A stretch of DNA of 64,000 bases from Candidatus Bathyarchaeota archaeon. GTDB taxonomy: Archaea > Thermoproteota > Bathyarchaeia > Bathyarchaeales > Bathycorpusculaceae. Each line of letters starts with the position of its first letter. Within the stretch, counting starts at the first letter, position 1. This document shows positions 4,598 through 9,396 of this stretch, piece after piece. Position numbers and translations under genes: made by a program. The stretch spans positions 2,048,001 to 2,112,000 of the forward strand of contig OY970280.1 in the NCBI GenBank assembly GCA_963715865.1, given 5' to 3'. The notes beneath the pieces were generated by a model that searched no databases, was not told the origin of the DNA, and was given only the letters and a program-made list of their open reading frames with translations.

Positions 4598-6043
4598 TTA
4601 GCGTTTTGATTCTTGCAGCAGCTCTTGTATGTATTCGTTAACTGTTTTCTGGTGTTTTTTCGCTATCCTTTTTATGGCATTGTTTATGCCTGTAGAGTAC
4701 TGCACCGCTTTCTTAGGTTTATCCACCACCGAGCCAGGCATACCAGCATTCAAAGCAACTTTTCTTAGTACAAGCTTTCTTAGGGTATCCGTTTTCTTTT
4801 CAATTTTGCACTCAATCGGCAAGCTTAAAGCAAATTCAGCAAGCTCAAACGACGCGAAAGGCAAACGCAACTCCACATCATGGTAAGTGCAGATTTTCAG
4901 GTCACGCTCAAGATTGCTCTCATGAATCCCAACCACATCGTTGAACATTGTTTTTCGGACTTTTTCGCTTCCCTCGTTGCAGTATTCGTTGACATAGCGT
5001 TGGTAGCCTCCGAAAAGTTCATCTGCGCCCTGCCCAGCCAACAGCACCTTGAAACCTGCTTCAGCCGCTTTTTCTGCAGTCCAATAAAACGGCAAGCCGA
5101 CGCTGGCTTTAACTGGGTCAGGCTCTTCAATTAGCGCTATCACTTTTGGTAAGGTTTTTTCGACGTCAGAGTCTTTGAATAAATGGACCTGTAGGGGCAG
5201 ATTTAATTCGTCTGCAGCTTTCATAGCCTCTTCCGTTTCAACCTGATTCTCCAGACTCACATGAAACAGATTAACTTTTACTCCACACTTGCTCGCCAAA
5301 TAAGCCACTAAGCTGCTGTCTAATCCTCCTGAAAACGCGACTGCAACCTCCTTTAAGCCGTGCACTCGTCTCTGGATTGATTGCTCAAGAAGAGCTTGAA
5401 GCTTTTTCGCTGCTTCATCCATCGTTATCGGTTTAGGTTCTGTGTAAGTTAGTGTTTTGATTGGTTTGAACTGGAAACCTTCGCGATTGAAAAAAGCTAT
5501 GTTGCCCGGCGGAAAAGACAGCGGATTTTCTATTCCCAGCTTCCACAGGGCTTTTCGGTTTGTGGCAACGGCAGCGACATTTTTGTTTTCTCCGTAATAA
5601 AGCGGTTGAACTCCTACTGGGTCTCTTCCCGCCGCAATCCAACCATCCTTGAGCATTAAAAACGAATAGTCTCCATCCGTTTTCTCAATTAGCGTTTGCA
5701 GGATGGTTTCGCAATGATTCGGTTCCTTGGCAACCTGTTCCATAACAGCAGTTTTTGGCATAGGCGAATAGACTCTGCCTTCAAAGACAAGCGCTGCATC
5801 ATCCAACTTCAAAAACTCATAACCACTCTCCGATTTAGGTTTCGAGGAAAGATAGCCAACCATGGTTGATGAAACTAAGCCTTGTCTACTCATGATGTCA
5901 AGGTTTTTGTCTAAAAGACTCTTCGTTGGGGAAACTAACCCAAAATGTGAAGTCCGCACATCACCGAGTACTTTAAGTAATTCAAGAACCCGCTCAACTA
6001 CGTTATTGCGCTGCTTATCTAATACTGCAACAGTTACCTTCAT
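4598..6043 (-). CDS. Asparagine synthetase B-like protein (no N-terminal catalytic Cys)
   Basis: GRDPVGVQPLYY, PP-loop AFSGGLDSS, GQGADELFGGY; start taken at ATG 6043 (GAGGG SD). Confidence 0.85.
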   Translation of the reverse strand: MKVTVAVLDKQRNNVVERVLELLKVLGDVRTSHFGLVSPTKSLLDKNLDIMSRQGLVSSTMVGYLSSKPKSESGYEFLKLDDAALVFEGRVYSPMPKTAVMEQVAKEPNHCETILQTLIEKTDGDYSFLMLKDGWIAAGRDPVGVQPLYYGENKNVAAVATNRKALWKLGIENPLSFPPGNIAFFNREGFQFKPIKTLTYTEPKPITMDEAAKKLQALLEQSIQRRVHGLKEVAVAFSGGLDSSLVAYLASKCGVKVNLFHVSLENQVETEEAMKAADELNLPLQVHLFKDSDVEKTLPKVIALIEEPDPVKASVGLPFYWTAEKAAEAGFKVLLAGQGADELFGGYQRYVNEYCNEGSEKVRKTMFNDVVGIHESNLERDLKICTYHDVELRLPFASFELAEFALSLPIECKIEKKTDTLRKLVLRKVALNAGMPGSVVDKPKKAVQYSTGINNAIKRIAKKHQKTVNEYIQELLQESKR

Positions 6044-6088: not shown

Positions 6089-6105
6089 AAAACATTAATC
6101 TTTAA
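6089..6105. repeat. 17-bp direct repeat, left copy (AAAACATTAATCTTTAA)
   Basis: Exact match to 8013-8029. Confidence 0.9.
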
Positions 6106-6329
6106 CGATTTTCACGTATTTTTAATCAAGACTTTAAATGAGAAACGATTGGAAACTTAGGTGACCCCTCAATGATGGCATGTTGTTCTATGGCTGCCCA
6201 GCGGAAAGATAGTTGTTTCAAACGATTAAGCGGACAAAAAAATGGGTCAAAAAGCGTTTAGTGGAAGGAAAAAAGTTCGCATATTTTATTAACTAATCAA
6301 ATAGATAGAGAATAAAAGAGTGAAACGTC

Positions 6330-6926
6330 ATGGGTTCCTATCTTTTAATAATGCGTGAAATAGACGAGTTAGCGAGGGATGTATTGTCGCATTCAGAGTT
6401 CAGAGAAGCAGATGACATTTCTCGTTCACTCGCTATTGGCAACAAAAGTATGAGAAGAGAAGCAAGGTACCGCCTTATTGAAATCGTAAAGCCACCTCCG
6501 AAAAGACCACTTTCTTACGCTCAACAAGAAATCACGCATCTTCCTCAGGCGACAAGAAACAGCATTCGGTATCTCGGCGATTATATAGACCTTTTAGTAA
6601 AAGGCATGGCGTTCGAGCTTACAAAAGACCCTCGTTGCAAAAAGAGCTCTTTAGGCGCGAACGTTCGAAAACTAAATCCTGAGAGACATGCAGTTTCCTT
6701 AGAATTGATAAATAATCTGCGAAGATATGACTCTTTGTTCTATAATCCAGGCAAGCATGATTTTAGCATGCCGCCTCCTGGTCGAGAGCATCATTTCACT
6801 TCTATGGAAACAGTATTTGATGTTTTTGTCACTTTCAAACTTGCAGATGAAATTAAGAAAGCCTCTCAATTTGCCAACCTGATTAGCCTTGACAAAGAAA
6901 CCATTGAGGATTTTGAGGATTATTAA
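6330..6926 (+). CDS. Hypothetical all-helical protein, possibly HEPN-like
   Basis: ORF track; LRRYDSLFYNPGKHD resembles a HEPN N-x-x-x-H end motif. Confidence 0.6.
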   Translation: MGSYLLIMREIDELARDVLSHSEFREADDISRSLAIGNKSMRREARYRLIEIVKPPPKRPLSYAQQEITHLPQATRNSIRYLGDYIDLLVKGMAFELTKDPRCKKSSLGANVRKLNPERHAVSLELINNLRRYDSLFYNPGKHDFSMPPPGREHHFTSMETVFDVFVTFKLADEIKKASQFANLISLDKETIEDFEDY

Positions 6927-6930
6927 GAGG

Positions 6931-7090
6931 CATTTCAAGGTTGTAACCGAACAGGAACTTAGAAACTTTGCTAACGCAAGGATGGCATGGAGTTACTTGT
7001 CTACCTAGAGGAAAGATTGTAGTCAGCAAGAATAAGAGAAGAGTAAAACAATTATTGCCAACCAATTATAACAAACTTTATAATCAATAG
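6931..7090 (+). pseudogene. Frameshifted remnant resembling the C-terminal tail of archaeal tyrosine integrases
   Basis: FKVVTEQEL(+1 shift)ETLLTQGWHGVTCLPRGKIVVSK; family assignment is from recollection only. Confidence 0.35.
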
Positions 7091-7103
7091 AAAGGAATTA
7101 AGG

Positions 7104-7226
7104 GATAGACGTTTCCTATCGATAGCTCGTGAATAATAATTCGACTACTTGCACGGCGAACTGTTCCAAGTAATCCAATGTAACAGTTCCCGTGAGGTTT
7201 TTGGATTATTACTCACGTAACCTATC
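7104..7226. other. Nested inverted-repeat (hairpin/cruciform) element
   Basis: Arms 7128-7140/7205-7217, 7152-7165/7182-7194 and 7121-7125/7222-7226; small hairpin 7104-7120. Confidence 0.55.
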
Positions 7227-7254
7227 AGTTTTAGTCGCCTATTCGCCTTTCCAC

Positions 7255-7542
7255 TTATTTTTTCTTGTCGCTTGGATTCAGTACATACAGCTTCTTAACA
7301 CCGTTTGGCTCTACTGCTGTCCTTAAAACAATGTGTTTGAATTCTCCTCTTCTTTGCAATCGTCTTATTCCACCTCTGGCGGAGTCCAAATTGACATCTT
7401 CAGATGAGAAAACTACGGCAGTGCCCTTTTTTATGCTATTTAGAATGTCTCTATAAGGCGTATGTCTTGTTATTGCTTCTGGGACAACCTCCTCTGATAC
7501 TACAGTTAGGTTGGTTATGTCAAGTGCTGATTTCTTTGTCAT
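7255..7542 (-). CDS. Small basic protein, putative DNA-binding
   Basis: ORF track; own TATA (TATAAATA) and SD-like upstream; RGGIRRLQRRG basic helix. Confidence 0.65.
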   Translation of the reverse strand: MTKKSALDITNLTVVSEEVVPEAITRHTPYRDILNSIKKGTAVVFSSEDVNLDSARGGIRRLQRRGEFKHIVLRTAVEPNGVKKLYVLNPSDKKK

Positions 7543-7654
7543 TTATAATCGCCTTCGTATATGGTCTGCACTGTTATTTATAGTTAGTGCCTGTTGTGGT
7601 GTCTGGTTAGCAAATGCATTACTGCATTATTACAGTACAATTACCGCAATTTTA

Positions 7655-7921
7655 ACGCATTTTTAACGCAAAAGTGACGCAAAATTACGTTAACGCACAA
7701 CAACGCACGGATACGCATGTTATACGTATAATATACGCATAATATACGTACGAATTACGCATGGATTACTAAATGCACACATGCACGCGCGCACACACAG
7801 ACAACGCACAGATAATACACAACGCACGCTTAAACGCACGCTACAACGCACGGTCAAACGCACGTTACAGCATAACGGTCAAGCATAATGGTTGACCGAA
7901 CGCCAAAACTCACAAAACGCA
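7655..7921 (+). repeat. Phased ACGCA motif array
   Basis: 14 exact ACGCA copies on one strand, mostly 10-12 bp apart. Confidence 0.9.
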
Positions 7922-8012
7922 ACTAACGCGTCTTCAACGCTTCCAAAAGGCGAGTTCAATCGGCAAGACAGGAAAATTAAAACAAAATATCGAATCGCAA
8001 ATTTTTATCGAC

Positions 8013-8029
8013 AAAACATTAATCTTTAA
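8013..8029. repeat. 17-bp direct repeat, right copy; overlaps probable purB promoter
   Basis: Exact match to 6089-6105; ATTAAT lies about 25 nt upstream of the purB TTG. Confidence 0.9.
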
Positions 8030-8046
8030 TCTGTATATCCCTATCT

Positions 8047-9396
8047 TTGAGGAAACACCACTTGCCAATCTTACCCATCGATACTGGTCGTTATGGAACG
8101 CCAGAAATGCTCAAAATATTCGAAGAAGAAAACCGTGTTCAAAAACTGCTTGATGTTGAAGCTGCCTTAGCTTTGGCACACGCTGAAGTAGGCAATATTC
8201 CAAAGAAAGATGCTGAAAAAATCGCTGCGATGGCTTCCACCAAGTACGTTAGAGTTGAACGCGTGAAAGCGATTGAAAAAGAAATCAAGCATGATATTGC
8301 CTCGCTTGTTCGTGCGCTCTCTGAGGTTTGTGGTCCAAGCGGCGCCTATGTGCATTTGGGCGCAACAAGCTATGACATCGTAGACACTGCCAACGCGTTA
8401 CAGCTAAAGGATGCTTTAGGGCTTATCGAGGAAAAGCTAGCCGATTTGAAGGGAATATTGAAAAAGCAAGCGGCTCAGCATAAAGGAACGATAATGATTG
8501 GCAGAACCCACGGGCAACACGCCTTGCCGATTACTTTGGGCTTTAAGTTTGCGGTTTGGGGCTATGAAGTTAACAGGCACCTTGAACGGTTAAACGAATG
8601 CAAAAAACGCGTTTTAGTCGGAAAAGTAAGCGGCGCAGTGGGGACGCAAGCAGGCTTAGGCGAACATGCCGAAACGATTCAGGAGCTTGTAATGAAAAGG
8701 CTTGGTCTTCGTACGGCTGAGATTTCGACGCAGATTGTTCAGAGAGACCGTTACGCCGAGCTTGTATGTATTTACGCTATGGTTGCTTCCTCGCTGGAGA
8801 ATTTCGCAACCGAAATACGGGAACTGCAAAGGCCTGAAATTGGCGAACTTTTTGAAGCGTTTGAGGCTAAGAAGCAGGTCGGCAGTTCCACGATGCCTCA
8901 CAAGCAGAATCCTGAAACATGCGAGAGAGTCTGCGGTTTAGCCCGAATCGTCCGAAGCCTCAGCACTCCGGCATTGGAAGACATGATTACGTGGCACGAA
9001 AGAGATTTAACTCAATCCTCGGCGGAACGGTTTATTCTGCCAGAATCTTGCATTCTGCTTGATTACATGCTTAATTTGATATGTAATATTGTGGCTAATT
9101 TGCGAGTTGATGGCCAGCGGATGCTACAGAACGTGTCGTTGACGCAGGGACGCGCCATGTCTGAAGCCGTAATGATGGCGTTGACAAAGAAAGGCGTGAA
9201 CAGGCAAGAAGCACACGAGTTACTAAGGAAACTAACAATCCAAAGTGCACAGGAAAAACGGGACTTCAAGCAAGTTCTCCTCCAAGACAAATTCGTAAGC
9301 AGCAAACTAACAGAGAAAGAAATAGACCAAGCACTAAACCCGAAAAATTATTTGGGCACAGCAATTAAACAAGCGGAAAAATTTGCCAAAAGCTAA
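8047..9396 (+). CDS. purB: Adenylosuccinate lyase
   Basis: GRTHGQHA, GSSTMPHKQNP signature. Confidence 0.97.
   Translation: MRKHHLPILPIDTGRYGTPEMLKIFEEENRVQKLLDVEAALALAHAEVGNIPKKDAEKIAAMASTKYVRVERVKAIEKEIKHDIASLVRALSEVCGPSGAYVHLGATSYDIVDTANALQLKDALGLIEEKLADLKGILKKQAAQHKGTIMIGRTHGQHALPITLGFKFAVWGYEVNRHLERLNECKKRVLVGKVSGAVGTQAGLGEHAETIQELVMKRLGLRTAEISTQIVQRDRYAELVCIYAMVASSLENFATEIRELQRPEIGELFEAFEAKKQVGSSTMPHKQNPETCERVCGLARIVRSLSTPALEDMITWHERDLTQSSAERFILPESCILLDYMLNLICNIVANLRVDGQRMLQNVSLTQGRAMSEAVMMALTKKGVNRQEAHELLRKLTIQSAQEKRDFKQVLLQDKFVSSKLTEKEIDQALNPKNYLGTAIKQAEKFAKS

What the first reader, a model, noticed from the sequence alone, without database searches (positions are those of the whole stretch)
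6089..8029. 1.9-kb mini-element apparently inserted into, and duplicating, a bidirectional promoter
An exact 17-bp direct repeat, AAAACATTAATCTTTAA (6089-6105 and 8013-8029), bounds all non-housekeeping DNA between the head-to-head asnB-like and purB genes. The 17-mer has a central palindromic ATTAAT with purine-rich flanks on both strands. The left copy sits at promoter distance from the asnB-like gene (minus strand) and the right copy from purB (plus strand). The simplest model is that the empty site was one bidirectional BRE-TATA, and integration duplicated it so both host genes kept a promoter. This would be a promoter-targeting rather than tRNA-targeting element with a 1,924-bp excisable unit and no intact integrase (a satellite or relic).
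Basis: partly seen in the sequence, partly recalled or inferred. Interest (0 to 1): 0.8.

Follow-up and report, generated by a model that had tools for sequence, protein, structure and literature searches.

The report
Integrase-less island in a divergent promoter
A 1.9-kb piece of foreign DNA sits exactly inside the shared promoter of two housekeeping genes of a Bathyarchaeia archaeon and duplicates 17 bp of it; it is the decayed remnant of an integrase-carrying mobile element, one of a family of such remnants with changing cargo at the same spot in related genomes.

Summary
The 17-mer at 6089-6105 and 8013-8029 is exact and occurs nowhere else in the 2.35-Mb genome. About 60 genomes of the same genus have the asparagine-synthase-like gene and purB head to head, 53-63 bp apart, with one copy of the 17-mer. 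That is the predicted empty site.

At least seven other genomes or metagenome contigs carry inserts of 0.28-2.5 kb at the same point. They share end sequences but carry different cargo.

New here: the conserved left-end sequence is the pseudogenised last ~30 codons of a tyrosine-integrase gene, present twice in the window (6128-6229 and 6926-7033). The same genome holds an intact member of that integrase family in a 6.9-kb element at tRNA-Lys. Its layout matches: 17-bp repeat, short spacer, integrase reading inward, cargo, repeat.

So this is an integrase-deleted relic, like a bacterial cis-mobilizable element, and probably a composite of two relics. Its attachment site is a promoter core rather than a tRNA gene.

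Cargo: a HEPN-fold protein (198 aa), and a small protein (95 aa) beside a unique ACGCA repeat array.

Not shown: promoter function, present-day mobility, and the cognate integrase. This is a new variant of a known kind, of moderate interest.

The parts
4598..6043 (-). Asparagine-synthase-like gene (left host flank). The conserved ATG is at 6043. The N-terminus lacks the Cys2 of class-II amidotransferases.
   Evidence: Pfam PF00733 1.5e-44. Start conserved in relatives. Orthologue in 116 of 120 genus genomes.
6089..6105 (.). Left copy of the 17-bp core (attL). With the host GGT to its left, it is the inferred promoter of the asparagine-synthase-like gene.
   Evidence: Junction with empty sites.
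6106..6127 (+). Short spacer between the core and the integrase remnant. It is conserved among family members (it starts CGATTTT).
6128..6229 (+). First remnant of an integrase gene: the last ~33 codons plus the stop, with two in-frame stop codons (a pseudogene).
   Evidence: tblastn of intact tails, E 1.5e-7 against the whole genome. nhmmer and Infernal hits. The frame read from 6089 is printed.
6330..6926 (+). ORF198, cargo: an all-helical protein with a HEPN-like fold. It belongs to a widespread unnamed family.
   Evidence: 95 clusters, none with Pfam. Model pLDDT 93. VIA-align Z 8.9 to 2hsb and 8.5 to 3o10, with many further HEPN chains.
6926..7033 (+). Second remnant of an integrase 3' end (~36 codons, one in-frame stop). 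It abuts the stop codon of ORF198.
   Evidence: tblastn E 1.6e-8 against the whole genome. Repeat D2..
7128..7217 (.). Hairpin (13-nt arms, 92% complementary) in the convergent gap between ORF198 and ORF95. Function unknown; possibly a terminator.
   Evidence: I16. Not followed up.
7255..7542 (-). ORF95, cargo: a small basic alpha/beta protein, inferred to bind nucleic acid.
   Evidence: Homologues at 72-82% identity only in close relatives. Model pLDDT 83. Weak winged-helix, Alba and R3H matches, Z about 5.
7600..7930 (+). Array of ACGCA-containing repeats with 11-12 bp periods, upstream of ORF95.
   Evidence: 14 ACGCA in 300 nt against at most 4 anywhere else in the genome. A similar array lies upstream of the ORF95 homologue in G108.
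7950..8012 (+). Right arm of the element. It is conserved among family members and ends in a T-tract just before the core.
   Evidence: blastn among inserts. Alignment.
8013..8029 (.). Right copy of the 17-bp core (attR). With the host sequence to its right (8030-8040), it is the inferred purB promoter.
8062..9396 (+). purB (adenylosuccinate lyase), the right host flank.
   Evidence: PF00206 2e-57 and PF10397 1.5e-23. Orthologues.

Best explanation
The 1,924-bp unit is the decayed, integrase-deleted remnant of a site-specific integrative element of a Bathyarchaeia tyrosine-integrase family.

Inferred origin: the ancestral element recombined its attachment site with a 17-bp core in the middle of the ~33-bp conserved block between the divergent asparagine-synthase-like and purB genes. 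Recombination between two sites sharing this core leaves one copy at each end.

The core is a near-palindrome: a central ATTAAT with A-rich runs on either strand. It reads as a single TATA box flanked by a BRE on each side. Each hybrid junction therefore keeps a complete unit, and each host gene keeps a promoter.

The integrase gene lay next to the left junction and read inward, as in the intact relative at tRNA-Lys in this genome. It was later deleted except for its last ~30 codons.

The window's copy holds two such remnants. It is therefore a composite: a G078-like relic (integrase tail, ORF95, ACGCA array) plus an ~0.8-kb module (integrase tail, ORF198).

The same site in relatives holds sister relics with other cargo, including a TIR-domain defence-type protein. 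Occupied and empty states are interleaved among close relatives, so the unit has been gained or lost precisely several times.

Shown: the repeats, the empty sites, the family of inserts, the integrase remnants and the intact family member. Inferred: the recombination event, promoter function, and any mobility today.
For: Repeats and empty sites:
- Exact repeats, unique in the genome.
- Single-copy empty sites whose sequence equals left flank + 17-mer + right flank, in about 60 genus genomes. One is G045, the sister of this genome in a two-gene tree.

Inserts at the same point:
- G078, 1112 bp, exact repeats, ORF95 at 80% identity, no ORF198.
- G048, 282 bp, exact repeats.
- G076, 1284 bp.
- G003, 2.1 kb, with a CAP12/Pycsar-type TIR protein (PF10137, 2.8e-15) and a decayed left copy.
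- G097, 2.5 kb.
- Metagenome contig L080, 2.4 kb, exact repeats.
- Shared left and right ends.

Integrase remnants:
- The left-end motif is the C-terminal tail of a 420-aa protein in G121.
- That protein hits the PHROG integrase families phrog_216 (3.2e-09) and phrog_1 (5.8e-09).
- Its nearest Atlas clusters carry PF00589 in 83-89% of members.
- tblastn of intact tails hits window 6128-6226 and 6926-7033 at E 1e-7 to 1e-8 against the whole genome.

Intact family member in this genome:
- C1:1525635-1526984 has the same tail and hits phrog_1 at 2.2e-08.
- It starts 66 nt after tRNA-Lys(UUU).
- It lies inside a 6.88-kb unit bounded by a 34-nt repeat at 91% identity with 17 exact bases.

Promoter reading:
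- Single-TATA BRE-TATA-BRE promoters firing both ways, with start sites 49-50 bp apart, are documented in Pyrococcus furiosus (PMC6640164).
Against: - No insert at this site, in 120 genus genomes and the metagenome hits, carries an intact integrase. The cognate enzyme is unknown.
- The resident family member uses a tRNA core, not this one.
- The exactness of the two copies does not show a recent event. The 17-mer is under strong selection genus-wide, and both copies presumably serve as promoters.
- The tree rests on two flanking genes, and no branch supports were inspected.
- Promoter function is inferred from sequence alone.
Confidence: 0.75

Rival explanations
1. The unit is a relic that has not been mobile since one ancient integration. 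Under this reading the present pattern comes from vertical descent, precise loss by recombination or slippage between the two 17-bp copies, and cargo exchange by homologous recombination through the conserved ends and flanking genes. No integrase acts on it in trans.
For: - No cognate integrase was found at this site in any genome searched.
- Left copies are decayed to different degrees in G003, G019, G047, G066, G084, G060 and G097, as expected for old inserts.
- Identity of the copies can be kept by selection on promoter function.
Against: - Family members with exact repeats occur in lineages whose flanking asparagine-synthase-like proteins are only 72% identical (G048 against G000), interleaved with many empty sites.
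- Loss by 17-bp repeats would have to be frequent and always precise.
Confidence: 0.3
2. A docking platform for integrase-less cassettes. A recombinase encoded elsewhere, by the host or by another element, recognises the promoter core and repeatedly inserts and exchanges small cargo modules, in the manner of integron cassettes or Xer-dependent modules.
For: - Variable cargo between constant ends in at least 8 genomes or contigs.
- The core is an imperfect palindrome of about 8+6+8 bp, a usual shape for a tyrosine-recombinase core site (reading).
- The genome holds several tyrosine recombinases.
Against: - The repeated internal 'site' turned out to be a coding remnant, not a structured recombination site. 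No conserved fold was found (alifold about -4 kcal/mol).
- No integron-type integrase is adjacent.
- The core does not have the 11+6+11 architecture of dif sites described in PMC2958812 (arm comparison by eye).
Confidence: 0.07
3. A transposon or casposon-like insertion, with the 17-bp repeat being a target-site duplication made by staggered cuts.
For: Direct repeats of 14-15 bp flank casposons (own knowledge). There is no integrase inside the unit.
Against: - No terminal inverted repeats, in any family member (ends compared).
- No transposase or Cas1.
- The same site is used in every case.
- Integrase remnants are present.
Confidence: 0.02
4. An SSV-type element whose attachment site lies inside the integrase gene, so that integration split the gene. 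The left-end tail would then be the C-terminal half.
For: The reading frame is open from the core into the tail remnant apart from two stops. A short A-rich match links the right end and the integrase 3' region.
Against: - The intact family member at tRNA-Lys is unsplit and lies wholly inside its repeats.
- No significant similarity between right ends and integrase sequence: 9-11 nt matches only, E 0.04-0.6.
- The alignment shows homology only for the last ~30 codons.
Confidence: 0.03

Closest known systems
Cis-mobilizable elements (CIMEs) of streptococci, as defined in PMC5704250
   Same: [quoted passage not shown] It lies at the attachment site of a family of integrative elements, and tandem accretion of relics is common. 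The two integrase remnants here fit that pattern.
   Different: - Archaeal host.
- The target is a promoter core, not the end of a gene.
- No conjugative partner is known.
- Mobilisation in cis or trans is untested.
tRNA-targeted integrative elements with unsplit tyrosine integrases in archaea, here the 6.88-kb element at tRNA-Lys in the same genome
   Same: Same integrase family, shown by the shared C-terminal tail. Same layout: core, short spacer, integrase reading inward, cargo, core. Same length of exact identity (17 bp).
   Different: The core is the 3' end of a tRNA gene, the integrase is intact, and the cargo differs (ParB-like protein, an 870-aa protein, a repressor-like protein).
Bidirectional BRE-TATA-BRE promoters of Pyrococcus furiosus (PMC6640164)
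   Same: One symmetric TATA element with a BRE on each strand drives transcripts in both directions, about 50 bp apart. The geometry fits the 53-63 bp gap of the empty site.
   Different: There it was shown by start-site mapping and in vitro transcription. Here it is inferred from sequence and conservation only. In P. furiosus the second transcript is mostly antisense noise; here both directions would serve genes.
Integron gene cassettes and Xer-dependent (dif/pdif) modules
   Same: Small recombinase-less modules with variable cargo at a fixed site.
   Different: No adjacent integron integrase, no attC-like structured site, and the core lacks dif architecture. The internal repeat is a gene remnant.

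Membership tests
Site-specific integrative element (tyrosine integrase, unsplit type) | Direct repeats of the core at both ends of the insert | tested here: met
   Exact 17 bp at 6089 and 8013, unique in the genome.
Site-specific integrative element (tyrosine integrase, unsplit type) | Relatives with an uninterrupted site holding one core | tested here: met
   About 60 genus genomes have a 53-63 bp gap with one copy.
Site-specific integrative element (tyrosine integrase, unsplit type) | Integrase gene inside the element | tested here: not met
   Only two pseudogenised 3' remnants, at 6128-6229 and 6926-7033. There is no intact gene in any insert at this site.
Site-specific integrative element (tyrosine integrase, unsplit type) | Excision to a circle with a joined attachment site | not testable with these tools
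No joined junction was found in viral, genome or metagenome contig scans with the attL pattern.
Cis-mobilizable element (CIME) | Retains attL and attR but lacks integration and transfer genes | tested here: met
Cis-mobilizable element (CIME) | Derived from an integrase-encoding element of the same attachment specificity | tested here: inconclusive
   Integrase remnants lie next to attL in the layout of an intact family member. No intact element with this core was found.
Cis-mobilizable element (CIME) | Can be excised or mobilised by a related element's integrase | not testable with these tools
   Needs reads or experiments.
Archaeal bidirectional BRE-TATA-BRE promoter | AT-rich symmetric TATA element with a purine-rich BRE upstream on each strand | tested here: met
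   The core has a central ATTAAT flanked by A-runs on both strands. It is conserved at 90-100% across 24 aligned empty sites. Both hybrid junctions keep an A-rich hexamer next to the TATA. This is a match to a consensus, not a functional test.
Archaeal bidirectional BRE-TATA-BRE promoter | Two start sites about 50 bp apart centred on the TATA | not testable with these tools
   No transcript data. The distances from the TATA centre to the start codons (about 53 and 41 nt) leave room for short leaders with GAGG-type ribosome-binding sites.
HEPN domain (ORF198) | Four-helix up-down HEPN fold | tested here: inconclusive
   Z 8.9 (2hsb, rmsd 2.9, 114 aligned), Z 8.5 (3o10), and more than ten further HEPN chains among the top 25. 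The tool warns that Z under about 13 is weak for helical bundles. Foldseek found nothing.
HEPN domain (ORF198) | Rx4-6H catalytic motif | tested here: not met
   The invariant residues are K142, H143, D144, H154, F156 and E160. No canonical Rx4-6H is seen in the sequence.
Transposon / casposon | Terminal inverted repeats and a transposase or Cas1 | tested here: not met
   Ends compared in six members. No such gene is present.
Integron | Adjacent IntI-type integrase and structured attC sites bounding cassettes | tested here: not met
   No integrase is adjacent. The repeated internal motif has no conserved structure and is a coding remnant.
SSV-type (split) integrase element | Integrase gene split into N- and C-terminal parts at the two ends | tested here: not met
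   No N-terminal fragment lies at the right end. The intact family member is unsplit.

The most novel reading that the evidence does not exclude
The attachment core is not merely tolerated inside a promoter; it is a promoter in the element too. In the free form it would drive the integrase gene. After integration, the two regenerated bidirectional copies would drive the two host genes outward and the element's genes inward. The site would then work as a dedicated expression dock, where small defence-type cassettes (HEPN-like, TIR-like and others) are exchanged by an integrase supplied in trans. That would be an archaeal, promoter-based analogue of an integron platform.
Probability: 0.12. Interest if true: 0.8.

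Novelty: new variant of a known kind. Interest (0 to 1): 0.5.

Why it matters
Archaeal integrative elements are known almost only from tRNA genes, and little is known of them in Bathyarchaeia, which are uncultured.

This is a well-documented case in which an element of a tRNA-targeting integrase family instead uses the core of a divergent housekeeping promoter. The recombination geometry returns a full promoter unit to each host gene. That explains how such a risky target can be tolerated.

The site has become a small variable island with defence-type cargo in several peat-bog lineages.

The finding also does two practical things:
- It defines a Bathyarchaeia integrase family that Pfam's integrase model did not detect here.
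- It gives precise attachment-site sequences that could be tested in vitro.

Tried and rejected
- **Rfam.** The region gave only chance-level hits.
- **Left-end motif as an RNA.** No conserved structure was found. It turned out to be coding sequence.
- **Small intact gene over the motif.** Rejected, because indels and stops differ between copies.
- **Terminal inverted repeats.** None found.
- **Viral contigs.** They hold neither the attL junction pattern nor relatives of ORF198.
- **Genome and metagenome scans with the attL pattern.** They found only more occupied sites, no joined attachment site.
- **Genomes where the two host genes lie apart or on different contigs** (G073, G072, G099, G071, G120, G087, G122). 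I hoped for a large intact element; they are ordinary rearrangements. The integrase near the G073 gene belongs to a tRNA-linked element.
- **The core as the chromosome dif site.** It lacks the 11+6+11 arm structure, and GC skew is uninformative.
- **SSV-type split integrase.** Not supported.
- **Boundaries of the G121 and G084 integrase elements.** Not found within 20 kb.
- **Pfam, PHROGs and PADLOC** gave nothing for ORF198, ORF95 or most cargo of the sister inserts.
Full report
**1. The observation**

The 17-mer is exact at 6089-6105 and 8013-8029. With up to two mismatches these are the only matches in the window, where shuffles give 0.06. With up to one mismatch they are the only matches in the whole 2.35-Mb single-contig genome.

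The left flank is an asparagine-synthase-like gene on the minus strand. The right flank is purB. Record titles of close relatives place the organism in Bathyarchaeia, as MAGs from SPRUCE peat.

**2. The empty site exists**

I searched purB in 40 relatives and read its upstream flank. Fourteen same-genus genomes had the two genes head to head, 53-63 bp apart, around one copy of the 17-mer. The sequence there equals the window's left flank, one 17-mer and the right flank.

I then extended this to 120 genomes of the genus:
- 103 hold the 17-mer with at most one mismatch, and most of them hold it once.
- 116 hold the asparagine-synthase-like gene.
- Comparing the coordinates from these two searches gives about 60 genomes with the short, single-copy arrangement.

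An alignment of 24 empty sites shows a block of about 33 bp at 80-100% conservation, with the 17-mer at its centre, inside otherwise variable spacer.

**3. A family of inserts at the same point**

| Genome or contig | Insert | Repeats | Content |
|---|---|---|---|
| G078 | 1112 bp | exact | ORF95 homologue (80%), a different repeat array, no ORF198 |
| G048 | 282 bp | exact | no ORF noted |
| G076 | 1284 bp | one mismatch | 309-aa ORF; no family search was run on it |
| G003 | 2.1 kb | left copy decayed | 369-aa protein with a CAP12/Pycsar-type TIR domain, matching candidate defence family PDC-S35 |
| G097 | 2.5 kb | left copy differs at two positions | membrane-protein cargo |
| Metagenome contig L080 | 2.4 kb | exact | other cargo |

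Shorter, more decayed duplications occur in G019, G047, G066, G084 and G060. A subclade (G004, G013, G014, G057) has a ~200-aa membrane-protein gene in the gap.

The family members share about 130 nt at the left end and 60-80 nt at the right end. On a tree of the two flanking proteins, occupied and empty genomes are interleaved. The sister of this genome, G045, is empty. I did not inspect branch supports, and two linked genes are a thin basis.

**4. What the conserved left end is**

I first treated the ~85-nt left-end motif as a possible RNA or recombination site. It occurs twice in the window and nowhere else in the genome. It has no conserved structure.

A sequence-only covariance model then found the motif at other loci in other genomes. 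There it is the 3' end of open reading frames.

In G121 it ends a 420-aa protein. The evidence that this protein is an integrase:
- It matches PHROG integrase families phrog_216 (3.2e-09) and phrog_1 (5.8e-09).
- Its nearest Atlas clusters carry PF00589 in 83-89% of members.
- By eye it shows the arginine, H-x-x-R and tyrosine motifs of tyrosine recombinases.
- Pfam itself did not detect it.

tblastn with intact tails hits window 6128-6226 and 6926-7033 at E 1e-7 to 1e-8 against the whole genome. The hits contain in-frame stops. The tails also hit the left ends of G048, G078 and G003. So the 'motif' is a pseudogenised integrase 3' end.

**5. An intact relative in the same genome**

The tail search also hit C1:1526778-1526969, the end of a 449-aa frame that hits phrog_1 at 2.2e-08.
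- It begins 66 nt after a tRNA-Lys(UUU) gene.
- The tRNA 3' end is repeated 6.88 kb downstream: 34 nt at 91%, with 17 exact.
- Between the repeats lie a ParB-like gene, an 870-aa gene and a repressor-like gene.

This is a conventional tRNA-targeted integrative element. Its layout is core, short spacer, integrase reading inward, cargo, core. The window's unit has the same layout with the integrase reduced to its tail.

That makes 'integrase-deleted relic' the best reading. It is the equivalent of what is called a cis-mobilizable element in streptococci (PMC5704250).

The two remnants in the window, 807 bp apart, show that it is a composite. The right part (second remnant, hairpin, ORF95, array, right end) corresponds to the G078 element. 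The left part adds a first remnant and ORF198.

**6. The promoter reading**

The core has a central ATTAAT with A-runs on either strand. It sits about 53 nt from the ATG of the left gene and about 41 nt from the conserved TTG of purB. Both starts are preceded by GAGG-type motifs.

Single-TATA promoters with a BRE on each side, firing both ways with starts 49-50 bp apart, are documented in Pyrococcus furiosus (PMC6640164). After insertion each junction keeps the TATA and an A-rich hexamer on both sides.

In decayed left copies the half next to the left gene is the better kept. This fits relaxed selection on the half that now faces the insert.

All of this is inference, since no start-site data were available. 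Each regenerated unit would also fire into the element. However, ORF198 and ORF95 have TATA-like sequences of their own, by my reading, so they need not depend on it.

**7. Cargo**

ORF198 belongs to a family of about 95 clusters without any Pfam domain. Its model is confident (pLDDT 93). VIA-align lists HEPN domains first: Z 8.9 and 8.5, with many more below. Foldseek finds nothing, the canonical HEPN motif is absent, and such Z values are weak for helical bundles. A 40%-identical homologue lies next to a PF00589 integrase on a 10-kb contig of G077.

ORF95 has close homologues only in a few relatives. Its fold matches are weak: winged-helix, Alba and R3H, Z about 5. It always has a repeat-rich region upstream. 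The ACGCA array here is unique in the genome. Binding of ORF95 to the array is a reasonable guess, not a result.

**8. What remains open**

No intact integrase with this core specificity was found, and no joined attachment site. Whether the unit still moves is therefore unknown. I give about 0.3 to the view that it has been immobile since a single ancient integration. That view is a sub-case of the relic reading rather than a contradiction of it.

Transposon, integron-like, dif-like and split-integrase readings were tested and are disfavoured (section on rivals).

**9. Verdict**

This is a new variant of a known kind. It is an archaeal integrative-element relic whose attachment site is the core of a divergent promoter, at a site that has become a small variable island. 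Interest is moderate.

Noticed in passing
G000:C1:1525493-1532454 (outside the window; locus L133 694-7654): A 6.88-kb integrated element at tRNA-Lys(UUU). It is bounded by a 34-nt repeat (91%, with 17 exact bases). It carries an intact 449-aa integrase that PF00589 did not detect in the genome scan, a ParB-like gene, an 870-aa gene and a repressor-like gene.
   Followed up: partly
window 7600-7930: An array of ACGCA-containing repeats with 11-12 bp periods: 14 ACGCA in 300 nt, against at most 4 anywhere else in the genome. Comparable repeat-rich regions lie upstream of ORF95 homologues in G078 and G108.
   Followed up: partly
window 7128-7217: A hairpin with 13-nt arms (92% complementary) between the convergent ORF198 and ORF95. 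The equivalent region of G078 is not similar.
   Followed up: no
window 4598-6043 (minus strand): The asparagine-synthase-like protein starts MKVTV, without the Cys2 that class-II glutamine amidotransferases need, so its amidotransferase domain is probably inactive. In several relatives (G022, G108, G124, G131, G115) the gene shows many in-frame stops, from either decay or assembly errors.
   Followed up: no
window 8047-8064: purB most likely starts at the TTG at 8062, which is conserved in relatives and has GAGG 9 nt upstream. The ORF list instead gives the TTG at 8047.
   Followed up: partly
L033 11718-12827 (G003): The sister insert in G003 encodes a 369-aa protein with a C-terminal CAP12/Pycsar-type TIR domain (PF10137, 2.8e-15) that matches the candidate defence family PDC-S35.
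   Followed up: partly
L050 8941-10460 (G108:C11): An ORF95 homologue (72-74% identical) and its repeat region lie between a RimK-like gene and a deoxyhypusine synthase gene. Next to them is a 191-aa protein with a weak Pycsar-TM match. This may be another small island at a different site.
   Followed up: no
G086:C1 near 337.7 kb, 1128.1 kb and 2867.4 kb; G132:C48; G097:C14; G098:C6 (loci L126-L131): Further dispersed remnants of the same integrase tail, some intact as short ORFs and some decayed. They suggest many old relics of this element family across the genus.
   Followed up: partly
G103:C7, G125:C19, G129:C11: A one-mismatch variant of the 17-mer (C in place of A at position 9) lies about 9 kb from the purB copy, in inverted orientation, in three genomes. 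Its context was not examined.
   Followed up: no
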